Shown here in pieces: positions 15,112-47,870 of a DNA stretch of 52,757 nt. How positions within the stretch are numbered: position 1 is the stretch's first letter; each line of letters begins with the position of its first letter. A program made the position numbers and the translations under genes. Source of the stretch: Escherichia phage vB_EcoM_SD350. The notes beneath the pieces were generated by a model. It had not been told where the DNA came from and ran no database searches. It saw only the letters and a list, made by a program, of their open reading frames with translations. The DNA lies in the sequence record OR911937.1, one strand, 5' to 3'.

Positions 15112-18068
15112 TGCACACGATGTTGCTTAAAGACGGATCAGACCATCGAGCTAATGTCGAAAGCCTTATCGAAGGTCACCACCATTTTCTAGAGCGTAAT
15201 ACTGGCAGAACTGACGATGCTACGCGTCAGCACTATATCTTCAACCCAGAAGGAGTAGTGTCGAACAACCGCCATTTTATTGCACACACCATGATGGAGT
15301 ATCAGCCTAACGGTGATGCTCCGTCTGAAAGTCAGTCGCTGCTAATACTCGGCGAAATTCACGCGTACCTTGCTACTAAGGAACAGCGGTACCTTGACAA
15401 AGCAATTGAGTACTTCAATGCTTACGTCAAGTACTATTACGAGGGGGACCCAATCCCTGATACTCCTCGTCGCTGGATCGCTAACTGGCTTTGTAATGGC
15501 AAAGAGCCTGTGTTAGCCAGCTTCCCAATCAACCCTGATTCACCAACACAAGGCGGCTATAAAAATGTGCCAGTTAAGTTTGTTAACGGCAAAGCACAAA
15601 TCCCTCATGGTTCTCCTTTCTGGGGCGAGTACCTGGATGTTGCTACTTGGGCCCACAGGGGACACATGGCTTGGCCTGCTATTAATGGCGGTGTCCGTGT
15701 TATTAAAAATAAAGTTGACTGGGACGATATTTACAACAATTATCGCATCACTACCATGCCAGCTGACCCGTGGAATCAGTTAGCCTGGATTGACTGGCCG
15801 AGGTATCTGGGCGAACCAAGCTACACTGTGGACTGGTCAGCTGCTGAACCTCCTGTACATCTCATCGAGTATATTGTTGCATGGACCAATAACAAGATTG
15901 GTGTTCTGCCTGGCAAAAACGATGAGCTATGGGGAGGCGAGATTCTTGAGACTGGACTGCCTAACTCTCGCAGAGGTGAGATTCAACTCCGTGACCACAC
16001 TGTTAACGGTGTGTATCTGCTTAACTATGCCGTTAAGCTTCCTGTTGAACACGGTGGTTATTTGCTTAAGCGAAATGAGGTATGGCACAACAGACCGGTA
16101 AACGTTCCACTGTACGGCGAGCTTCAACGCGGTAATGCTGCTGATGCTGAGTTGTGGTTCTGTGACTGCTGCTATATGCTGTGGCGAATTACTAAAGAGC
16201 AAAAGTATTACAACGCTTGGCAAGCTGTCCTGTTTACGCTGGAGGAGTATATTGATATTGATAAACAAGACCAGTTCTTCCGTCAAGACTCTCACGCGTC
16301 ATCTCCGTTTACTGATGGCATCTCTTATGATTGGTCTTATCCTGAACTGGCACAAGCTATATATTCACGTGATGAAAATGGTTATATAGTTCTACGCCAG
16401 AACCAAAAAGCTCAATCATCTCTGGAGCAACAGGCTGTATGGTTTAAGTGTAAGCCAACAGCTAAGATACGTACAGAGGTTGGTGGCAAAGATGATGCTG
16501 GTCAGAATATCAGTGTCAAGGTGGAAATGTACATGAACCGTGAAAAGGTTGACGTTGAGCAAAACATCTATCGTTTTGTCACACAGCTACCTGCTCTTGG
16601 TGCTTCACCTGCTAACTACGACATTCCGTTAAGCGATTTTGTCGCAGGTACTAAGCCAGATGGTTCTGAGTATATCTTAGCTGATATTCGTTCGTCCACT
16701 GATTACGGCAATGCCACTATTGCAGTGTCTTACCGTACTGACATACTTGACAACAGACGTGGCAACACTGTTCGTATGACAATACCGGATAGTTCGTCAG
16801 GTGCCATTATAGGCTTTTGGCTACTGGAATCTTCCCAGGCGCCTTTAAACTCGCTGACGTATACTTCTACAGGTCCGTTGTGCATCAAAGTAACTGACGC
16901 GCAAGGCTGGAGTTGGGTACGTGATTTACCTGCCGCACCAGGATGGGTAACTCAGCAGATTCGCACCTGGGAGTTCAGGCTGGCGTCATACCAGGAAAAC
17001 ACAGGTACACCACCAGCTAGCCCACAATTCGGCGAGATTAAGCAGTTCTCGTTTGTACTGCCTGATGGTGTTAATACGTCGACAAGTATTAGCTGGTACT
17101 GTGTGAATGATGTTCCGCCTCGCTATAACTGGCCAATCGGCTATACGATTAAGTATCGTCTTACTTTCTCGGCTGATAACCCGTACACAGCTAGACTTGG
17201 CGACTGTACTGTGCTGGACTATGAGAATGATAACCTTGCTTACACGCCAGGTGTTATTCCGTTCTCCAACATTTATAACCCTGATTCTAAGCAGTTCGAT
17301 GGTTGGCACGGTATACCTTACCCTGGCTATCAGTATCCGTTTGTCTTTACGCATGACGATACTGCAGCAGGTACAATCAGGCTGAACAACATGGTTAACT
17401 TTTTGTACGATTCTCAGCAATGGTACTATAAGAAGTTTGGTCAGCTAGGTCCTGGTGCATCTGCTTTTATCTGGAACCGTTGGGATAACTTTAAATACGG
17501 TGTACCTGATACGTTTACCATGTATCACTGGGGTAATGGTAGTGCATGGTCAGGTTACCAGCCTCGTGCTTATTTCTCCGCAGCACGTGGATGGTATGAG
17601 CTAGTAAACCGTGGTAAGCCAGTTCCGAGTAAGCTTATTGCTTATGTGGATAACTGGTCAAAATGGTTGCTTGACTTCATGGAAAGGTCAGGAGGTGTGT
17701 CGCCTTCTAACTTCCCACAAGAAGGTGTTGCTCTGCCAGTCCCTACAGACTTCACAGGTCACATGTGCGGACTATGGCTTGCTGGTGCAGCTATGTCAGC
17801 CCTTTGTGGGTCAACGGTATCAGGACTTGATAAGCTGATGGACATGCTTGTCAATGAGCTGGAAGACCACTATGACATAACTGGTATTCCAGGGCATGTA
17901 ATGGATGGTGGTTGGTCGCCAGCGTTACGTCTTGAAACTGGTACAGGACCTGAAAGCAACGCCATGTACTATGGTTTTTACTCTGGCGAAATATTACGAG
18001 GGTTGGGCTTATACCTGCTGTACAAAAACAAAGGGGCTAAAGCAGATATTTATGATTTAGGCCCGTAA
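15111..18068 (+). CDS. large virion-module protein of unknown function (985 aa)
   Basis: Single uninterrupted ORF, Trp/Tyr-rich, no motif I can assign; lies between connector genes and Ig-like proteins. Confidence 0.6.
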   Translation: MHTMLLKDGSDHRANVESLIEGHHHFLERNTGRTDDATRQHYIFNPEGVVSNNRHFIAHTMMEYQPNGDAPSESQSLLILGEIHAYLATKEQRYLDKAIEYFNAYVKYYYEGDPIPDTPRRWIANWLCNGKEPVLASFPINPDSPTQGGYKNVPVKFVNGKAQIPHGSPFWGEYLDVATWAHRGHMAWPAINGGVRVIKNKVDWDDIYNNYRITTMPADPWNQLAWIDWPRYLGEPSYTVDWSAAEPPVHLIEYIVAWTNNKIGVLPGKNDELWGGEILETGLPNSRRGEIQLRDHTVNGVYLLNYAVKLPVEHGGYLLKRNEVWHNRPVNVPLYGELQRGNAADAELWFCDCCYMLWRITKEQKYYNAWQAVLFTLEEYIDIDKQDQFFRQDSHASSPFTDGISYDWSYPELAQAIYSRDENGYIVLRQNQKAQSSLEQQAVWFKCKPTAKIRTEVGGKDDAGQNISVKVEMYMNREKVDVEQNIYRFVTQLPALGASPANYDIPLSDFVAGTKPDGSEYILADIRSSTDYGNATIAVSYRTDILDNRRGNTVRMTIPDSSSGAIIGFWLLESSQAPLNSLTYTSTGPLCIKVTDAQGWSWVRDLPAAPGWVTQQIRTWEFRLASYQENTGTPPASPQFGEIKQFSFVLPDGVNTSTSISWYCVNDVPPRYNWPIGYTIKYRLTFSADNPYTARLGDCTVLDYENDNLAYTPGVIPFSNIYNPDSKQFDGWHGIPYPGYQYPFVFTHDDTAAGTIRLNNMVNFLYDSQQWYYKKFGQLGPGASAFIWNRWDNFKYGVPDTFTMYHWGNGSAWSGYQPRAYFSAARGWYELVNRGKPVPSKLIAYVDNWSKWLLDFMERSGGVSPSNFPQEGVALPVPTDFTGHMCGLWLAGAAMSALCGSTVSGLDKLMDMLVNELEDHYDITGIPGHVMDGGWSPALRLETGTGPESNAMYYGFYSGEILRGLGLYLLYKNKGAKADIYDLGP

Positions 18069-38374: not shown

Positions 38375-38967
38375 TAAAACAGTTCCTTTTGAGCCGGGTT
38401 AACGTGTGCGTCGATGATGGACTGGATGTCAGGTGCTTTCCACCCTTCAGGCTTAACAATATCCTGACCAGACTTATGCTTGCTGTTGCTTGCATCAGGC
38501 TTAGCGCGTTCTTTCGCCATGTTAGCAGCCTGTACCGCATCCCATGCTGCGTCAAGTGGCCAGTTATTGTTTGCACACCAGGTAATCAGGTGGATAATTA
38601 ACTGGGCCAGACGGTCGCAATGAGTGTCTTCAGTATCCTTAACATATACAATAAGGCCATCAGCATCGAAACGGTCCATAAATCCGCATGGCGTAGTTAA
38701 CAGAATCGGATACTCAAATTCGTTGGTGAACCATGCAGTCTGGTCATACAAGTATAACGTACCTGCGGCAATGTAAATTAAATCTACAATACCATCTAAG
38801 AAGCCAGCTTTGTCGCCGTCCTTCTTAGCTTGTTTAATTTCTTCCATCTCCTCAATAAGACGGTCGTAACGAAGCTTGAACTCAGGTTTACCGCCTTGAC
38901 TAACAGGCTTGAGGTCAAACTTCTCATGAAAAGCGGTAACGCCTGCAGCAATTTTACTGAATCGCAT
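38374..38967 (-). CDS. MazG-like all-alpha NTP pyrophosphohydrolase
   Basis: 197 aa; acidic helix RLIEEMEEIKQA...DGIVDLIYIA typical of MazG-like pyrophosphatases; adjoins the TS-family gene. Confidence 0.5.
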   Translation of the reverse strand: MRFSKIAAGVTAFHEKFDLKPVSQGGKPEFKLRYDRLIEEMEEIKQAKKDGDKAGFLDGIVDLIYIAAGTLYLYDQTAWFTNEFEYPILLTTPCGFMDRFDADGLIVYVKDTEDTHCDRLAQLIIHLITWCANNNWPLDAAWDAVQAANMAKERAKPDASNSKHKSGQDIVKPEGWKAPDIQSIIDAHVNPAQKELF

Positions 38968-39352
38968 TTCGTAACTCCTTACAAACAGTTTCGATAAACT
39001 TACGCTTAATTTCTGTAGACCAGATAATATGACGAGCCTGTTCTAAAGTGTCCCAACGTTCTTTACCCACAGGAAAGGGAACAATGAAAAGGCCGGTACG
39101 GGATATGCGCTTGATAAACGGGAATTTACAGCGCATGGTTGTTTCAAACTTGATAAAGTTTGTTTGCACATCGCGTGTAAACTTGACCTTATCAAATTCA
39201 TGTTCAAGAGTTTGAGCAATGTTGCATACTTCCTGGAAAGAAGATGCAGGCAAGTAATCTTCGCGGCCGACGGTGTTCACGTAGTCGATTTGGCCTTCTA
39301 GTCGAAGTATCCAAATCCTGTAATAAGCTTCAGCAACACGTTGTAGATTCAT
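38954..39352 (-). CDS. hypothetical protein, coupled to the MazG-like gene
   Basis: 132-aa ORF whose stop overlaps the MazG-like start by 14 nt; first gene after the 39377-39407 promoter. Confidence 0.5.
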   Translation of the reverse strand: MNLQRVAEAYYRIWILRLEGQIDYVNTVGREDYLPASSFQEVCNIAQTLEHEFDKVKFTRDVQTNFIKFETTMRCKFPFIKRISRTGLFIVPFPVGKERWDTLEQARHIIWSTEIKRKFIETVCKELRNAIQ

Positions 39353-39376
39353 TGTATCTCTCCTCTAAAAGATAAC

Positions 39377-39407
39377 TTATTATACCACATCACTCTCTAG
39401 TGGTAAA
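39377..39407 (-). promoter_or_regulatory. leftward promoter with CCAC/GTGG inverted repeat and extended -10
   Basis: Minus strand reads TTTACCAC-N-GTGGTATAAT (TTTACC-N17-TATAAT); related copies at 42505-42533, 45745-45770, 48865-48897. Confidence 0.45.
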
Positions 39408-39432
39408 GCACTTTTTACGCTTCTGGTAAAAA

Positions 39433-39462
39433 TAAAAAGGACCAGCGTTAACTGGTCCTTTT
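39433..39462. terminator. bidirectional intrinsic terminator
   Basis: AAAAGGACCAG-cgttaa-CTGGTCCTTTT: perfect 7-bp GC-rich stem flanked by A and T runs. Confidence 0.65.
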
Positions 39463-40029
39463 GGCAGGGTGGCGTAAGGAGATACAAGGCATCGTAACTA
39501 TGCAACCAGGCAGCGCATATGAGATTGGCCAAAAGACTTACCATTTTAATCCCCGCGACGAGACGAAAGGAGGTGTTATCGAGTAGCCAATCACATATGC
39601 GTTACTTGCTGTGTGCTCTCACCGCGGAAAGTATAGAGCGTTGCACTTATCACACCGATGGAGTGGCAAAAGCACACAGCAAGTACAACCTTAGTTGTGG
39701 TGTCTTAGCACCTGAGTTATTGTGGATAACCTGCACCCGACGGGTGTCAAAAAAGATACGCCAAAACACCACAACTAAAATTGTGACCGCCGTCTACACC
39801 AGGCGCCTGGGGTCAAGGTAGCGAGCCAATACCCTTTTCAGCGTCGGAGGAATCGAACCTCACACATCACGGCTTTTACCAAATCTCGGTCAGCGAGCAG
39901 AATTGAACTGCATTCACTGGACACCCTCACTGTTTCAACACACCAGGCTTAATTGATTGTTGATAAGAAGAGAGATGTAAGGATGTCCATTGAATGCACC
40001 TCCGTAGAGGTGCGTTCAGATCAGCGCTA
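39463..40029. other. noncoding island inside the replication operon; candidate structured RNA or origin
   Basis: ~570 bp without a credible ORF; perfect 15-bp inverted repeat (39602-39616 / 39670-39684, 53-nt spacer); 12-bp palindrome CCAGGCGCCTGG (39800-39811); two T-arm-like stem-loops (~39846-39862, ~39896-39912). Confidence 0.4.
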
Positions 40030-40497
40030 TTATTCAGCAACTTCTTCGTTGTCGCCTTCGATCGCGCCAGCCAGTTTAGCAGCTTCAGCTTTAGCAGCTT
40101 CTGCTTTCTGGCGAGCTTTTTCAGCTTTCTCTTCAGCTTTGCGAATCTGCTCAGCAGCTTTCGCTTCGGCTTTTTCAGCTTTGATGCGAGCACGCTCTTC
40201 AGCTTTACGCTGTTTTTCAGCGGCTTTAGCAGCATCGCGTTCTGCTTTAGCGGTATCAACACGCTTAGCCAGAACTTTACCAGTGGCTTTACGCCAGTAG
40301 GTCAGCTGGGAAGAAACAGTACCACGGGACATTTCGGTAGTGGCAACAACTTCGTCCATAACGTCAGAGCTGGACTTGCCTTCTTCATGGGCTTTATCAG
40401 CCAGGTCCCATACATAACGTGCACCAGTACCAGCTGCCGGATACAGTACGCCGTTAACTTCTTCTTTACCAGTTACAAAAGTCAGTTTCTCGCTCAT
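40030..40497 (-). CDS. protein with Lys/Ala/Glu-rich low-complexity C-terminal tail
   Basis: Start set at MSEKL (GAGGA upstream); C-terminal ~70 aa is AKAERDAAKAAEKQRKAEERARIKAEKAEAKAAEQIRKAEEKAEKARQKAEAAKAEAAK. Confidence 0.5.
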   Translation of the reverse strand: MSEKLTFVTGKEEVNGVLYPAAGTGARYVWDLADKAHEEGKSSSDVMDEVVATTEMSRGTVSSQLTYWRKATGKVLAKRVDTAKAERDAAKAAEKQRKAEERARIKAEKAEAKAAEQIRKAEEKAEKARQKAEAAKAEAAKLAGAIEGDNEEVAE

Positions 40498-40603
40498 AAT
40501 TTTTTCCTCGTCTACAGGGCTTAATGTTTGTTCGTTACGTGAGTTAATATACGTCATTTAAAAGAGTGTGTAAACACCTTTTTTAAACTTTTTTCATTAG
40601 TGT

Positions 40604-40825: not shown

Positions 40826-42482
40826 AACCGTTTCCCCAGTCGTAGTTCATGATTTGTGGGTAGGGTCGTTTAATCCATACCTTGATGCGCTTAGGAATAG
40901 CCAGCTCACCCTTACGGCGAATAAACTCATCGCATGTTTCAGGCGGTTCTGTTCCTGCAGCATTGCGCCACCAGGCATCTGCCATTTGCTTAGCATTGCC
41001 ATGGGCCTCTATATTTACCCATGTTGTATACACTTCCAGGTTTGAGTAGTACACAACCTTTATACTGTCTGGCCGTCCCTGCTTCTGGAATAAAGAATAG
41101 TTTACCAGCGTAACATCTTTATCCACAACACGAAGCTGACCGTTAGTCATTACCTCTTCTTCTGATGAAGTGAAGGCAATGGCAGGTCCGTTAACTGTAA
41201 ACTCAAATTCATGTCCGCACATCGGATATACACCATTCTCGTCTGGCGTACTTCCTTTAGCCGGATGCTTACACGTACGTGCGGCATAGCCACTTACCTG
41301 GTGACAGATAGGGCACTCTTTACCGCCAGGTGTTTTCTCTGACCGTTTCTTTTTCTTCTTACCAAGACGTGGCGGAACAGCCGGGTCGTCAATAGGCCCA
41401 AGGTCAATGGTGTTAGATGTGAAGTCCATAACAAGACAGTCATGCTTACCAGGCGCTGTACGTAATCCTCGACCGAGTATCTGCACCCACAAAGCAACAG
41501 ACGTGGACGGGCGCAAGATGCCGAGCATATCAATCTCAGGATAGTCAAATCCTGTCGTCAATACGTTTACGTTTACACAGACTCGTGCTCGTCCGCTTGT
41601 AAACTCTTCCAGTGTGGCTTCACGTTCTTTCTTCGTAAGACCGCCATGCACAACTACAGTCTGCCACCCTCGCAGATTAAATTCGTCTGCTATGTTGTGG
41701 GCGTGCTCAACACTTGTGGCAAATACAAGAACGTGGTTCCTGTCTTTACCGTAGTGCATCATCTCACGAATAGCCGCGACTGTTATACTATGCTGGTTGG
41801 CTACCTTCTCAAGCTCTGACGGGATGTAGTCACCCATCCTTTCGCCAACATTACTAGTGTCAATCTTGGTTAACACTTTCTTGTTGACCAGGCGTGACAG
41901 GAAGCCTTCATTTACCAGTCGGGTAAATGCGTCAGGTGTTGTAAGGTCATAACAGATGTCGGTAAATATACCACAGTCCAGCAAGTGACCACCTGCCAGG
42001 CGATACGGAGTTGCCGTAAGTCCTGTTACCTTTACCTTAGGATTAAGCTCTTTGAAGTGAGCAATAACCTTACGGTATGTTGTTTCAGACTTCTCAGGAA
42101 CAAGATGGGCTTCGTCAATGAATATAAGATTGAACTTGCCAGCTTCTTCCAGGTTCTTAATAATTGACTGTACCGACGCTACAACGATACGACCTGAAAA
42201 GTCTTTGTGTCCTGCTCCTGAAGAGTAGATAGATACTGGGGCTTGTGGCCAGTGGCGTACAATCGCTTTGGCGTCTTGTTCTACCAGCTCCTTGACGTGT
42301 GTCAATATAAGAATGCGCTGACGGGGATAGCTGGTAAGAATATCCTTCATCAGCATACCAAGCACAGGTGATTTACCTGAACCTGTCGGCATGACAATAA
42401 GTGGATTACCACTATAAGAATTGAAGTACGACCACCAGGCTGTGACCGCTTCAGTTTGGTACCAGCGAGCTTCAAAAGCCAT
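40812..42482 (-). CDS. SF2 (DEAH-type) DNA helicase with C-terminal zinc ribbon
   Basis: 556 aa; Walker A MPTGSGKS, Walker B FIDEAH, C-terminal CPICH...CKHP...MCGHE. Confidence 0.7.
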   Translation of the reverse strand: MAFEARWYQTEAVTAWWSYFNSYSGNPLIVMPTGSGKSPVLGMLMKDILTSYPRQRILILTHVKELVEQDAKAIVRHWPQAPVSIYSSGAGHKDFSGRIVVASVQSIIKNLEEAGKFNLIFIDEAHLVPEKSETTYRKVIAHFKELNPKVKVTGLTATPYRLAGGHLLDCGIFTDICYDLTTPDAFTRLVNEGFLSRLVNKKVLTKIDTSNVGERMGDYIPSELEKVANQHSITVAAIREMMHYGKDRNHVLVFATSVEHAHNIADEFNLRGWQTVVVHGGLTKKEREATLEEFTSGRARVCVNVNVLTTGFDYPEIDMLGILRPSTSVALWVQILGRGLRTAPGKHDCLVMDFTSNTIDLGPIDDPAVPPRLGKKKKKRSEKTPGGKECPICHQVSGYAARTCKHPAKGSTPDENGVYPMCGHEFEFTVNGPAIAFTSSEEEVMTNGQLRVVDKDVTLVNYSLFQKQGRPDSIKVVYYSNLEVYTTWVNIEAHGNAKQMADAWWRNAAGTEPPETCDEFIRRKGELAIPKRIKVWIKRPYPQIMNYDWGNGYGAR

Positions 42483-47583: not shown

Positions 47584-47870
47584 TTACGTTTACCTTTACG
47601 TTTGTGTAGCGGAGTATATGTTTTCTTTGGTACGCCAAACATGGCCGCATATGTACCGACTTCTTTCTTTGTTGGCTTATCCACAATCTCGTCAATCACG
47701 ATTAAGTCATGGTTGATATTGCGAAAGACTTCAGCCGCTCTTTTCTCAACAGGAGTAAAGTCAATAACCAGCTCTTTGCCTATCAGGCTTTCTTTGAACT
47801 TGTCAAACAGCCATTTGTCACGCGGACCAGGATTGCCCATAAACATAACACGCATCTGCTTATTGTCCAT
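47580..47870 (-). CDS. hypothetical small basic protein
   Basis: 96 aa, basic C-terminus (KRKGKRK). Confidence 0.4.
   Translation of the reverse strand: MDNKQMRVMFMGNPGPRDKWLFDKFKESLIGKELVIDFTPVEKRAAEVFRNINHDLIVIDEIVDKPTKKEVGTYAAMFGVPKKTYTPLHKRKGKRK

What the first reader, a model, noticed from the sequence alone, without database searches (positions are those of the whole stretch)
39353..40029. ~680-bp noncoding island inside the leftward replication operon with a perfect 15-bp inverted repeat: candidate structured RNA or origin
Phage genes here are tightly packed, yet this stretch has no credible ORF (the only track ORF, 39519-39821, lacks a ribosome-binding site and looks non-coding). It contains a strong bidirectional terminator (39433-39462), a perfect 15-bp inverted repeat TACTTGCTGTGTGCT/AGCACACAGCAAGTA (39602-39616 and 39670-39684, 53-nt spacer), a 12-bp palindrome CCAGGCGCCTGG (39800-39811) and two stem-loops resembling tRNA T-arms. 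This fits a stable structured RNA of unknown type or a replication origin with protein-binding palindromes.
Basis: seen in the sequence. Interest (0 to 1): 0.62.

Follow-up and report, generated by a model that had tools for sequence, protein, structure and literature searches.

The report
Phage tRNA-like structured RNA island
The gene-free gap is a leftward-transcribed cluster of folded non-coding RNAs, and its core is a ~134-nt tRNA-like RNA (a T-arm joined to a D-arm-like loop) that also occurs, unannotated and absent from Rfam, in many unrelated phages, often directly behind tRNA genes.

Summary
Window 39353-40029 has no conserved ORF and is packed with inverted repeats. It folds far better than shuffles, and better as minus-strand RNA (z = -10) than as plus-strand RNA (z = -5.5).

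The important part is the pair of "T-arm" hairpins.

Together with a closing helix they form a discrete 134-nt unit (39914-39781, minus strand). Its order is: T-loop hairpin, invariant CUCGC linker, helix P1 enclosing a D-loop-like AGAUUUGGUAAA, a second T-arm, then a variable insert.

I found 78 distinct copies of this unit. They come from IMG/VR contigs and from GenBank phages of Salmonella/E. coli, Cellulophaga and Rhizobium, with a partial match in a Pseudomonas phage. Covariation is strong: 91-94% of cells paired, and 0 of 500 shuffles reached the observed score. Twenty copies start 1-9 nt after a tRNA. Rfam 15 and ARAGORN do not recognise the unit.

It resembles the tRNA-like domain of the bacterial Y RNA YrlA in its T-then-D order, but it fails YrlA's defining tests.

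Best reading: a processed, stable tRNA-elbow mimic within an RNA operon. The replication-origin reading is not supported. Function is inferred, not shown.

The parts
39996..40013 (-). H0: 7-bp hairpin GCACCUC-UACG-GAGGUGC directly after the stop codon of the 175-aa gene. No U-run follows, so it is not a terminator.
   Evidence: (I8). Present in all 8 lineages, with changed stem sequences in SOI901 and L027.
39909..39998 (-). M1: long stem-loop of about 20 bp with one internal mismatch and a roughly 46-nt apical part carrying the conserved GCCUGGUGYGUUG.
   Evidence: I3. 7 of 20 pairs show compensatory changes over 10 sequences from 8 lineages. Minus-strand fold -36.7 against plus-strand -27.0 kcal/mol.
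39781..39914 (-). The tRNA-like unit (new family, model R1): T1, CUCGC linker, P1, D-loop-like segment, T2, expanded insert, P1 3' strand.
   Evidence: cmsearch 69.8 bits, E = 6.5e-12, full model length. Family covariation.
39897..39911 (-). T1: T-arm-like hairpin GCAG-UUCAAUU-CUGC. The loop follows UUCRANU and the closing G-C never varies.
   Evidence: helix 1: 100% paired, 3 of 4 pairs with changes on both sides.
39887..39896 (-). Linker UCGC (39896-39893), which with the last C of T1 at 39897 makes the invariant CUCGC, followed by the P1 5' strand UGACCG (39892-39887).
39874..39886 (-). D-loop-like segment AGAUUUGGUAAAA. It matches the tRNA D-loop consensus A14 R15 Y Y G18 G19 N A21; the consensus is from my own knowledge.
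39847..39861 (-). T2: second T-arm-like hairpin GAGG-UUCGAUU-CCUC.
   Evidence: The stem covaries: GAGG/CCUC, CUGGG/CCCAG, GCCUG/CAGGC, ACCGG/CCGGU (helix 3).
39790..39846 (-). Expanded insert between T2 and the P1 3' strand. It corresponds to the short variable hairpin P3 of other phages.
   Evidence: The structure here is not resolved.
39784..39789 (-). P1 3' strand CGGUCA, which pairs with UGACCG at 39892-39887.
   Evidence: helix 2: G-C replaced by C-G, A-U, U-A; A-U replaced by G-C. Independent set.
39685..39784 (-). M2: 25-bp stem with two apical hairpins. The second, GGUUAUCCACAAUAAC, is invariant in sequence apart from one A-to-G change that keeps pairing, and it contains a perfect DnaA box (39721-39729).
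   Evidence: I1. 7 compensatory pairs. It lies between M1 and T1 in fHy-Eco03, KE25 and SE1_KM. DnaA box.
39603..39685 (-).
   Evidence: I4. 3 compensatory pairs plus several changes to wobble pairs. Found only in Rosemountvirus and Loughboroughvirus.
39507..39608 (-). M4: 23-nt-arm hairpin. Its apical part carries CACCUCCUU.
   Evidence: I2. Rosemountvirus only, with too little variation to test pairing.
39479..39493 (-). Segment complementary to the start-codon region of the downstream 132-aa gene (39346-39360). Candidate translation-occluding sequence in read-through transcripts.
   Evidence: I6: 15 nt, 87% complementary. Analogous complementarity in other lineages, individually weak.
39435..39462 (-). 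Intrinsic terminator that ends the RNA island.
   Evidence: Conserved in all lineages.
39379..39407 (-). Sigma-70-type promoter (TTTACC-17-TATAAT with TG) for the 132-aa gene, downstream of the terminator. It does not drive the island.
   Evidence: Annotated as a promoter in BP63. Invariant block.

Best explanation
The gap is a non-coding RNA operon read leftward (minus strand).

**Transcription (inferred).** No promoter-like site lies inside the gap. It is therefore most likely transcribed as the tail of the 175-aa gene's transcript, from the promoter-like site at 40574-40546, and it ends at the intrinsic terminator at 39462-39435.

**Core (structure shown).** The core is a 134-nt tRNA-like RNA (39914-39781) with this order:
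- a T-arm hairpin (T1);
- an invariant CUCGC linker;
- a 5-6-bp helix (P1) that encloses a D-loop-like AGAUUUGGUAAA;
- a second T-arm (T2) and a variable insert.

In the shortest family members (54-69 nt) only T1, the linker and P1 with its loop remain. The core is therefore a T-arm plus a D-arm-like stem-loop. These are the two elements that dock to form the tRNA 'elbow', placed in permuted T-then-D order, as in the tRNA-like domain of the bacterial Y RNA YrlA.

**Mechanism (inferred).**
- The unit is cut out of the precursor like a tRNA. It sits where tRNA-Pro and tRNA-Gln sit in related phages, and elsewhere it starts 1-9 nt after a tRNA.
- The long flanking hairpins M1-M4 and hairpin H0 serve as double-strand processing and stabilising modules.
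- The mature RNA folds into a tRNA-elbow mimic that occupies a conserved host factor that reads tRNA elbows.

**Shown versus inferred.** Shown: the absence of coding, the strand, the helices, the family and its distribution. Inferred: transcription, processing, stability and the binding partner.
For: **Non-coding.** The only sizeable ORF is broken in close relatives.

**Strand and structure.**
- Whole-region fold: z = -10 on the minus strand against -5.45 on the plus strand.
- Every long hairpin is 5-13 kcal/mol more stable as minus-strand RNA, with 3-7 G.U pairs.
- Compensatory pairs: M1 has 7, M2 has 7, M3 has 3.

**Selection on the core.** The T1-linker-P1-D segment is 92-100% identical between lineages whose adjacent 132-aa protein is only 42-77% identical.

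**Family.**
- Three different sequence patterns each retrieved the parts they did not specify.
- Model R1 finds the window copy at 69.8 bits.
- First set of 39 distinct sequences: 93.9% of cells paired against 74.1% in shuffles; 13 of 18 pairs change on both sides; score 0.379 against 0.113 (0/500); slid controls at most 0.089.
- Second set of 39 distinct sequences, none used to build the model: 90.8% against 71.0%; score 0.450 against 0.164 (0/500).
- Minimal 54-69-nt members are listed.

**tRNA context.**
- 20 of 78 units start 1-9 nt after a tRNA, covering 11 isotypes. Five are followed by a tRNA within 30 nt.
- The syntenic locus in Erwinia phage SOI901 and in metagenome contig L027 carries tRNA-Pro and tRNA-Gln instead.

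**Breadth.** GenBank phages of Salmonella/E. coli/Klebsiella, Cellulophaga and Rhizobium. A partial match (43 of 64 nt, 88% identity) in a Pseudomonas phage was not checked with the model. At least 120 IMG/VR stretches matched a relaxed pattern.

**Not already catalogued.** No match in Rfam 15. No tRNA or tmRNA by ARAGORN.

**YrlA topology.** T, then closed acceptor stem, then D, with the elbow as the conserved part (PMC4201824; bioRxiv 10.1101/312249).
Against: - No expression, processing or stability data exist for any member. Everything about the mature RNA is inferred.
- Alignments A7 and A11 were fitted to the model, and their members were recruited by sequence patterns. Conservation of T1, the linker, GAG and GG is therefore partly built in.
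- P1 overlaps an invariant alternative hairpin, CUCG-N5-CGAG. That hairpin would be the YrlA-like closed acceptor stem. Both cannot form together, so the true fold or folds remain open.
- The D-like loop is much larger than a tRNA D-loop, and the proposed T-loop/GG docking is untested. The only hint is one lineage in which the T2 loop C changes to G while GG changes to GC.
- Phage rivia lacks T2, the insert, the P1 3' strand and half of M2, yet it was isolated as a viable phage. The complete unit is therefore dispensable on its isolation host.
- M4 shows no covariation.
- The role of M1-M4 as RNase III substrates is inferred from their shape only.
Confidence: 0.6

Rival explanations
1. Purely cis-acting transcript architecture. 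The hairpins and the tRNA-like piece are processing and stability signals for the flanking mRNAs: RNase III/RNase P-type cuts, a 3' protective hairpin H0 for the 175-aa gene's mRNA, and occlusion of the 132-aa gene's ribosome-binding site in read-through transcripts. No trans-acting RNA product is made.
For: - The island lies between two genes of one operon and has no promoter-like site of its own.
- H0 directly follows the stop codon.
- The pre-terminator segment is complementary to the next gene's start region: 15 nt at 87% in the window (I6), a 14-bp match in L027, and 0/300 shuffles reaching the full L027 duplex energy.
- The module set varies between genera, as expected for dispensable RNA 'furniture'.
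- Phage rivia tolerates a 144-nt deletion.
Against: - The unit occurs in unrelated phages in quite different contexts. It sits inside tRNA arrays, or is followed by a U-run, so it behaves there like a free-standing RNA gene.
- Its 40-nt core is nearly invariant across phages of different bacterial phyla. Simple cleavage sites do not need that.
- The start-region complementarity is individually weak in most lineages (p = 0.02-0.25).
Confidence: 0.18
2. Decaying tRNA gene cluster. The T-arms are relics of the tRNA-Pro and tRNA-Gln genes that related phages still carry at this locus, and the rest is neutral debris.
For: - The syntenic locus in SOI901 and L027 has tRNA-Pro(UGG) and tRNA-Gln(UUG).
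- T1 resembles the tRNA-Pro T-arm of those phages, by my own reading.
- No intact tRNA is detected in the window.
Against: - The supposed relic is 92-100% identical across lineages whose neighbouring protein has diverged to 42% identity.
- Its helices covary.
- The same unit sits next to intact tRNAs in unrelated phages, and those tRNAs have their own T-arms.
- T1 is only 4-5 nt from P1, too close for a junction between two tRNA genes.
Confidence: 0.05
3. DNA-level element: a replication origin or DnaA-binding site whose palindromes bind proteins or extrude as cruciforms.
For: - The location is inside the replication gene block.
- A perfect DnaA box TTATCCACA at 39721-39729 is invariant in every lineage that has M2, and it is retained at the edge of the rivia deletion.
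- DnaA boxes are enriched in the whole genome: 4 perfect against 0.52 expected, 0/100 shuffles.
Against: - There is a single perfect box, not a cluster, and no iterons. The direct repeats found are short two-copy matches.
- There is no GC-skew inflection here; the switches are near 33.5 kb and 4.5 kb.
- Pairing is strand-asymmetric. The G.U pairs would be A.C mismatches in the other strand.
- Relatives L026, SOI901 and L027 lack M2 and its box altogether.
Confidence: 0.07
4. A self-cleaving or RNase P-guiding RNA that matures the 3' end of the upstream tRNA or transcript. In this reading the near-invariant junction nucleotides form a catalytic or recognition core rather than a mimic.
For: - The unit starts 1-9 nt after the CCA end of tRNAs in 20 of 78 cases.
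- The strongest conservation lies in the junctions (CUCGC, GAG, UGGUA) rather than in the helices, a pattern typical of ribozymes and aptamers.
- UGGU could pair with the tRNA 3' ACCA end, as in RNase P RNA and T-box RNAs. This is from my own knowledge.
Against: - No match to any Rfam ribozyme family.
- Most copies (58 of 78) have no detectable tRNA upstream, and the window copy has none.
- There is no biochemical evidence.
Confidence: 0.08
5. An unannotated small protein gene with a non-canonical start.
For: Some depositors annotated 30-66-aa ORFs in this gap.
Against: - The annotated ORFs differ from record to record.
- The longest ORF is broken in near-identical relatives by 1-2-nt indels and stops.
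- The conserved blocks show RNA-type covariation rather than codon-type variation.
Confidence: 0.02

Closest known systems
YrlA, the tRNA-like domain of bacterial Y RNA (Chen et al. 2014, PMC4201824; Wang et al. 2018, bioRxiv 10.1101/312249)
   Same: - Permuted order, with the T-arm 5' of the D element.
- T-loop UUCRANU closed by an invariant G-C pair.
- D-loop-type AG..GGUA sequence.
- No anticodon loop and no CCA end.
- The elbow-forming parts are the most conserved, while peripheral arms vary in size.
- Often encoded next to tRNAs.
- Some family members (L051, L058) have a long closing stem formed by the two flanks.
   Different: - No GNCGAAN0-1G Ro60/Rsr-binding motif.
- No Ro60 gene in the phage.
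- No Rfam match of any kind at E up to 10.
- The acceptor stem-loop is replaced by an invariant 5-nt CUCGC linker.
- The D element is a 5-6-bp helix enclosing at least 18 nt and often a second T-arm, not a 4-bp/8-nt D-arm.
- The window copy has no closing stem.
- By the one strict 20-mer scan of bacterial genomes, the unit is confined to phages.
Canonical phage tRNA genes and tRNA clusters
   Same: - The same genomic niche and the same spacing to neighbouring tRNAs.
- The syntenic locus in SOI901 and L027 holds tRNA-Pro and tRNA-Gln.
- T-arm sequence rules are obeyed.
   Different: - No cloverleaf, no anticodon arm, and no acceptor stem with a CCA end.
- Not detected by ARAGORN or by the Rfam tRNA model.
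Phage T4 stable RNAs, species 1 and 2 (rnaC, rnaD), in the T4 tRNA cluster
   Same: - Small non-tRNA RNAs of unknown function encoded inside a phage tRNA cluster.
- rnaC ends with a T-arm-like hairpin.
   Different: Model R1 gives no significant match to rnaC or rnaD. The best match in that region is 9.5 bits, covering a T-arm only.
tmRNA tRNA-like domain
   Same: A T-arm together with a D-loop analogue that lacks a D-stem.
   Different: - No aminoacylatable acceptor end and no tag reading frame.
- ARAGORN finds none.
- The only Rfam tmRNA hits are to the 15-nt T-arm.
Intergenic RNase III processing hairpins of phage T7 early mRNA (from my own knowledge)
   Same: M1-M4 are stems of 20-25 bp with internal mismatches, located between genes of a polycistronic transcript.
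   Different: - Four of them lie in a row with no genes between them.
- Their apical domains are large and conserved.
- Cleavage has not been tested.

Membership tests
   Window 39781-39914 (minus strand): 69.8 bits, E = 6.5e-12, model positions 1-105. It is the only hit in the 52.7-kb window.
   93.9% of cells paired, 13 of 18 pairs with changes on both sides, 0/500 shuffles. One search, on sequences not used to build the model: 90.8% paired, 14 of 18 pairs, score 0.450 against 0.164.
Canonical tRNA | Cloverleaf with an anticodon arm and an acceptor stem, detected by tRNA finders. | tested here: not met
   ARAGORN finds 0 genes in the window and in all Rosemountvirus and Loughboroughvirus loci. 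The Rfam tRNA model gives no hit at E up to 10.
Canonical tRNA | T-arm: 7-nt UUCRANY loop closed by G53-C61. | tested here: met
   The closing G-C of T1 and T2 never varies (GC:39 and GC:33; GC:39 and GC:34). Loop sequences are listed.
YrlA / bacterial Y RNA | T stem-loop located 5' of the D element (permuted order). | tested here: met
   T1 precedes the AGAUUUGGUAAA loop in all 78 units.
YrlA / bacterial Y RNA | Closed acceptor stem-loop between T and D. | tested here: inconclusive
   An invariant CUCG-N5-CGAG hairpin could form. However, its loop and 3' strand covary with the distant P1 3' strand, which excludes it when P1 is formed.
YrlA / bacterial Y RNA | GNCGAAN0-1G Ro60/Rsr-binding motif in a stem formed by the 5' and 3' ends. 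| tested here: not met
   The motif is absent from all 8 lineages of the island. No flank-to-flank stem exists in the window.
YrlA / bacterial Y RNA | Encoded next to a Ro60 (TROVE) gene. | tested here: not met
   The RefSeq annotation of BP63 lists no Ro60, RtcB or RNA ligase. The flanking proteins have no Pfam family.
YrlA / bacterial Y RNA | Match to an Rfam Y-RNA-like (YrlA) model. That Rfam holds such a model is from my own knowledge. | tested here: not met
   No Rfam family of this kind is listed at E up to 10 on 126-151-nt and 1-kb slices.
tmRNA | tRNA-like domain plus a tag reading frame. | tested here: not met
   ARAGORN finds none. Rfam hits cover only the 15-nt T-arm, at 6.5 bits.
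Replication origin with DnaA boxes or iterons | Cluster of initiator-binding repeats next to an AT-rich unwinding element. | tested here: not met
   One perfect DnaA box plus one with a single mismatch. Only short two-copy direct repeats. G+C is 0.44-0.46 in the 2-kb windows that cover the region, which is not AT-rich relative to the genome.
Replication origin with DnaA boxes or iterons | Origin activity. | not testable with these tools
   This needs marker-frequency analysis or mapping of replication intermediates.
Intrinsic terminator | G+C-rich hairpin followed by a U-run on the transcribed strand. | tested here: met
   39462-39435 on the minus strand: 12 bp followed by UAUUUUU.
RNase III processing sites | About 20 bp of double-stranded RNA cleaved by RNase III. 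| not testable with these tools
   The stem lengths fit. Cleavage requires an experiment.

The most novel reading that the evidence does not exclude
The 134-nt unit is a member of a previously undescribed, phage-specific class of minimal tRNA-elbow mimics: a T-arm docked on a D-arm-like loop, with no acceptor stem and no anticodon arm. Lytic phages of several bacterial phyla carry it in or beside their tRNA arrays. Its proposed role is to occupy a universal reader of the tRNA elbow. Candidates include RNase P, TruB/TrmA-type modification enzymes, the ribosomal L1 stalk, and tRNA-targeting immune nucleases. Binding would reprogramme or protect tRNA metabolism during infection.
Probability: 0.3. 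Interest if true: 0.85.

Novelty: new variant of a known kind. Interest (0 to 1): 0.72.

Why it matters
**A widespread element that annotation misses.** Phage genome papers on this group state that it has no tRNA or other RNA genes (for example PMC9343928, listed). The roughly 680-bp gap is either left blank or filled with spurious small ORFs.

This work shows that the gap holds a conserved RNA whose relatives occur in at least 78 distinct sequences. They come from phages of Enterobacteria, Bacteroidota and Alphaproteobacteria, with a partial match in a Pseudomonas phage. The RNA is missing from Rfam 15, and full-text searches did not find it described.

**Why a specialist would care.**
- It adds a second, phage-borne lineage of permuted 'T-then-D' tRNA mimics alongside YrlA. 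As of the papers read here, the effector that binds YrlA's tRNA-like domain had not been identified.
- The minimal 54-69-nt members define the smallest natural elbow mimic so far. That makes partner identification and structure determination tractable.
- Its tight association with phage tRNA arrays links it to the current question of why phages carry tRNAs, including escape from tRNA-cleaving defences.

**Practical outcome.** The covariance model built here could be used to annotate the family in phage genomes.

Tried and rejected
- **CRISPR-repeat mimic in M4.** The type I-E repeat does not match within 3 mismatches. Rejected.
- **Acceptor/T minihelix.** I tested whether the M1 3' arm (CAGUGA) pairs with UCGCUG after T1. 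In L026 the M1 arm changed to keep M1 pairing, not this pairing. Rejected.
- **YrlA membership.** There is no Rsr motif, no Rfam hit and no Ro60 gene. I kept it only as a 'works like' comparison.
- **T4 rnaC/rnaD homology.** No significant R1 match.
- **tmRNA or permuted tmRNA.** ARAGORN finds nothing.
- **M2 as an independent widespread element.** Its invariant 19-mer occurs only in Rosemountvirus and Loughboroughvirus contigs.
- **Other copies of the M1 apical motif or the GCUCGCU motif in the window.** None of significance.
- **Origin via GC skew.** No local inflection.
- **Function from neighbouring genes.** The 175-aa, 132-aa and 73-aa proteins have no Pfam family and fall only in PHROGs of unknown function.
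- **Literature.** No description of this RNA turned up in papers on Rosemountvirus or Loughboroughvirus, by the core sequence as a text string, or under tRNA-like, elbow or phage terms. A catalogue of 10,006 candidate viral structured RNAs (PMC10690425) may contain it, but the text does not say.
- **Bacterial genomes.** A strict 20-mer scan gave one mis-binned Rosemountvirus contig and two chance hits inside ORFs.
- **Helix between the 5' D-like segment and the 3' junction.** Suggested by the L041 fold, but not conserved in L068, L029 or the window when I read the sequences. Dropped.
Full report
**What the window is**

The window is a Rosemountvirus: a BP63-like myophage of about 52 kb that infects Salmonella and E. 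coli. The finding region is 99% identical to many GenBank isolates.

The region lies between two minus-strand genes of unknown function. They encode a 175-aa protein (40030-40557) and a 132-aa protein (38954-39352). Both sit inside the leftward block that also holds the helicase, thymidylate synthase and DNA polymerase genes.

Depositors either left the gap empty or filled it with small ORFs that differ from record to record.

**Checking the observation**

The terminator is called only on the minus strand.

The 100-aa plus-strand ORF is destroyed by stops and 1-2-nt indels in relatives that are more than 94% identical in DNA.

The gap contains nine inverted repeats. As minus-strand RNA it folds at -237.5 kcal/mol (z = -10.0). 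As plus-strand RNA it folds at -204.5 kcal/mol (z = -5.45). ARAGORN and Rfam find nothing at their thresholds.

**Anatomy of the minus strand, 5' to 3'**

- H0 hairpin: 40013-39996.
- Long hairpin M1: 39998-39909.
- The tRNA-like unit: 39914-39781.
- Long hairpin M2: 39784-39685.
- Long hairpin M3: 39685-39603.
- Long hairpin M4: 39608-39507.
- A short pyrimidine-rich segment.
- The terminator: 39462-39435.
- The promoter (39407-39379) and ribosome-binding site of the 132-aa gene.

No promoter-like site lies inside the gap. The nearest one upstream is at 40574-40546. Co-transcription with the 175-aa gene is therefore inferred, not shown.

Each long hairpin is 5-13 kcal/mol more stable as minus-strand RNA and contains 3-7 G.U pairs. 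Those pairs would be A.C mismatches on the other strand. This argues for RNA structure and against DNA cruciforms.

**Relatives of the locus**

BLAST and tblastn with the flanking gene gave the same 60 GenBank phages, which fall into four groups:
- Rosemountvirus;
- Loughboroughvirus (S144, ZCSE2, SE4);
- the fHy-Eco03/KE25/SE1_KM group;
- Erwinia phage SOI901.

A protein-alignment scan added IMG/VR contig L026 and metagenome contig L027.

All eight lineages share H0, M1, the terminator and the promoter. The interior is modular:
- M4 is confined to Rosemountvirus.
- M3 occurs in Rosemountvirus and Loughboroughvirus.
- M2 lies between M1 and the unit in the fHy-Eco03 group.
- SOI901 and L027 carry tRNA-Pro(UGG) and tRNA-Gln(UUG) in place of the unit.

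Compensatory changes support M1 (7 pairs), M2 (7 pairs) and M3 (3 pairs, plus changes to wobble pairs). M4 has too little variation to judge.

The stretch from T1 to GGUAAA is 92-100% identical between lineages whose adjacent protein is 42-77% identical. It is therefore under stronger constraint than the coding sequence beside it.

**The key result: a widespread family**

I used that conserved stretch as a DNA pattern. It occurs in IMG/VR contigs that are otherwise unrelated to the window.

Two further patterns each fixed a different half of the motif, and each retrieved the half it did not specify. A T1-only pattern brought in the P1/D-like part, and a P1/D-like pattern brought in T-loop hairpins with different stems.

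The unit has these parts:
- **T1:** a 4-5-bp stem, a UUCRANU loop, and an invariant closing G-C.
- **Linker:** invariant CUCGC.
- **P1:** a 5-6-bp helix. Its 3' strand lies 40-110 nt downstream, and in many contigs a U-run follows it directly.
- **Inside P1:** a D-loop-like AG(A/G)UU(N)GGUA(A), usually a second T-loop hairpin (T2), and a variable hairpin (P3).

I built covariance model R1 from 12 short members. It scores the window copy at 69.8 bits, and that is the only hit in the window.

| Alignment | Distinct sequences | Cells paired | Shuffled mean | Pairs changed on both sides | Covariation score | Shuffles reaching it |
|---|---|---|---|---|---|---|
| A7 | 39 | 93.9% | 74.1% | 13 of 18 | 0.379 vs 0.113 | 0/500 |
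| A11, not used to build R1 | 39 | 90.8% | 71.0% | 14 of 18 | 0.450 vs 0.164 | 0/500 |

With the 3' partners slid by 1-3 columns, the score never exceeds 0.089.

*Caveats.* These alignments are fitted to the model. The members were recruited by sequence patterns. The shuffle control ignores relatedness between sequences. The pair types in P1, T2 and P3 are nevertheless diverse: G-C, C-G, A-U and U-A all occur at the same positions.

**What the unit resembles**

The shortest members (54-69 nt: L130, L090, L127, L083) keep only T1, the linker, and P1 closing an 18-nt loop AGGUUAGGUAAG.... The core is therefore a T-arm plus a D-arm-like stem-loop.

By general tRNA knowledge, the D-loop consensus is A14 R15 Y Y G18 G19 N A21, and the T-loop docks on G18 and G19 to form the elbow. 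The unit's loop fits that consensus.

In one lineage (fHy-Eco03/KM) the T2 loop C becomes G while the downstream GG becomes GC. This is a single event and only a hint of the expected tertiary pair.

The T-then-D order is the permuted order described for YrlA. There, a T stem-loop, a closed acceptor stem-loop and a D stem-loop form a crystallographically confirmed tRNA-like L-shape, and the elbow region is the most conserved part.

*Membership in YrlA fails on tested features:*
- no GNCGAAN0-1G motif;
- no Ro60 gene;
- no Rfam hit;
- no canonical D-arm;
- the acceptor stem-loop is replaced by CUCGC.

An invariant alternative hairpin, CUCG-N5-CGAG, could mimic a short acceptor stem. It is mutually exclusive with P1, which covaries. 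Two members (L051, L058) do have a 14-15-bp closing stem formed by their flanks, as in Y RNAs. The window copy does not.

T4's stable RNAs rnaC and rnaD are not members.

**Genomic context of the family**

- 20 of 78 distinct units begin 1-9 nt after an ARAGORN-called tRNA on the same strand, covering 11 isotypes.
- Five are followed by a tRNA within 30 nt.
- Several others end in a U-run just ahead of a protein gene.
- In GenBank, the unit follows tRNA-Cys in Cellulophaga phage phi13:2 and tRNA-Gln in Rhizobium phage RHph_N38. It is unannotated in both.
- Pseudomonas phage Touem01 has a partial match covering 43 of 64 query nt at 88% identity. I did not check it with the model.
- A strict 20-mer scan of one genome per bacterial species found only a mis-binned Rosemountvirus contig and two chance matches. 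As far as tested, the family is phage-borne.

The unit's spacing to tRNAs is the same as the tRNA-to-tRNA spacing in phage clusters such as T4's. That is why I infer tRNA-like excision from the precursor.

**Mechanism I commit to**

*Shown:*
- a non-coding, minus-strand, multi-hairpin locus;
- containing one member of a conserved, covarying, tRNA-elbow-like RNA family;
- closed by a terminator.

*Inferred:*
- The locus is transcribed with the upstream gene.
- The long stems M1-M4 and hairpin H0 act as double-strand processing and stabilising modules.
- The unit is released as a stable small RNA.
- That RNA presents a tRNA elbow to a conserved host factor.

Phage rivia carries a natural 144-nt deletion that removes T2, the insert, the P1 3' strand and the M2 5' arm. 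The complete unit is therefore accessory on that phage's isolation host. This fits a host-range or fitness function better than an essential one.

I put 0.6 on this overall reading. Within it, I put about 0.3 on the specific elbow-mimic/decoy function.

**Rivals**

- **Purely cis-acting architecture.** This is the strongest rival, and it can coexist in part with the main reading. In particular, the pre-terminator segment is complementary to the start region of the 132-aa gene in most lineages. That recalls the occlusion of T4 late-gene start sites in early read-through transcripts (my own knowledge).
- **Decayed tRNA genes.** Contradicted by conservation, by covariation, and by the unit's coexistence with intact tRNAs elsewhere.
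- **Replication origin.** Its only support is one conserved DnaA box. There are no iterons, no skew switch and no strand-symmetric pairing.
- **Ribozyme or RNase P guide.** Cannot be excluded by computation.
- **Small protein.** Effectively excluded.

**Novelty and verdict**

The significant element, however, is the T-arm region and not the 15-bp repeat.

The unit is a new family. It is not in Rfam 15, and I did not find it described in the searchable literature. Its closest known analogue in function and topology is YrlA.

I rate it a new variant of a known kind (tRNA mimics of the permuted T-then-D type), with interest 0.72.

Noticed in passing
window 17645-17653(-), 39721-39729(-), 41119-41127(+), 47677-47685(+): Perfect DnaA boxes (TTATCCACA) are enriched in the phage genome. 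There are 4 against 0.52 expected (0/100 shuffles), and 24 against 13 expected when one mismatch is allowed (0/100). One box sits in the invariant apical hairpin of M2 and survives at the edge of the rivia deletion. This may indicate use of host DnaA or a transcriptional roadblock.
   Followed up: partly
window 39479-39493 vs 39346-39360; also loci L004, L005, L007, L027: The segment just upstream of the terminator is complementary to the Shine-Dalgarno/start-codon region of the downstream 132-aa gene. The match is 15 nt at 87% in the window and 14 bp in L027. Read-through transcripts might therefore be translationally silent for that gene, while transcripts from its own promoter are not. The match is individually weak in most lineages.
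   Followed up: partly
L016 (Salmonella phage rivia, MT074438), corresponding to window ~39870-39727: A natural 144-nt deletion between two GGU microhomologies removes T2, the insert, the P1 3' strand and the 5' arm of M2. This gives a ready-made mutant for testing the RNA's function.
   Followed up: partly
L006, L007, L019 (fHy-Eco03, SE1_KM, KE25): Hairpin M2 lies between M1 and T1 in these phages, rather than after the unit. They also carry a different long hairpin downstream. The hairpin modules seem to move or be exchanged as cassettes.
   Followed up: no
window 39575-39567 (M4 apical part), 39983-39966 (M1 apical part), ~39480 (pre-terminator): Pyrimidine-rich motifs resembling the anti-Shine-Dalgarno sequence recur in apical or single-stranded parts. 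M4 carries CACCUCCUU, identical to the last nine bases but one of E. coli 16S rRNA (my own knowledge). The M1 segment UCCUUACAUCUCUCUUCU is 78% complementary to the ribosome-binding region of the 132-aa gene (I5).
   Followed up: no
L045, L046, L073 (Cellulophaga phage phi13:2 type): In this subfamily T2 is followed by a second CUCG-N5-CGAGAUUA copy. The unit therefore looks like a tandem duplication of the T-arm/linker/D-like module. A diverged echo of the same pattern (CGACGCUGA...GGGUAUUGG, then GCUCGCUACC) follows T2 in the window.
   Followed up: no
L051 and L058 (IMG/VR contigs): These variants lack T2 but have a 14-15-bp closing stem formed by the sequences flanking the unit. This gives a Y-RNA-like architecture of a long stem plus a tRNA-like head.
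   Followed up: partly
GenBank PP583539 'Listeria phage 220426122051'; MAG contig JAEWER010000021 'Bacillota bacterium' (L042): Both carry sequence about 99% identical to this Salmonella/E. coli Rosemountvirus region. They are probably a mislabelled host and a mis-binned phage contig.
   Followed up: no
window 40075-40100, inside the 175-aa gene: There is a short tandem direct repeat (TTTAGCAGCTT, two copies) in the lysine/alanine/glutamate-rich C-terminal half of the upstream protein. It is annotated as repeat_region in phages brunost, birk, emhyr and others. The start codon of this gene is also called differently between records (468 nt against 528 nt).
   Followed up: no
L008 (Erwinia phage SOI901) 2496-3041 and L027 1952-2500: These relatives keep H0 and M1, replace the unit with intact tRNA-Pro and tRNA-Gln, and follow them with a different long hairpin. 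In SOI901 that hairpin's apical loop carries the GCCUGGUGCGUUGGUG motif that sits in the M1 apical loop elsewhere; L027 has a related apical sequence.
   Followed up: partly
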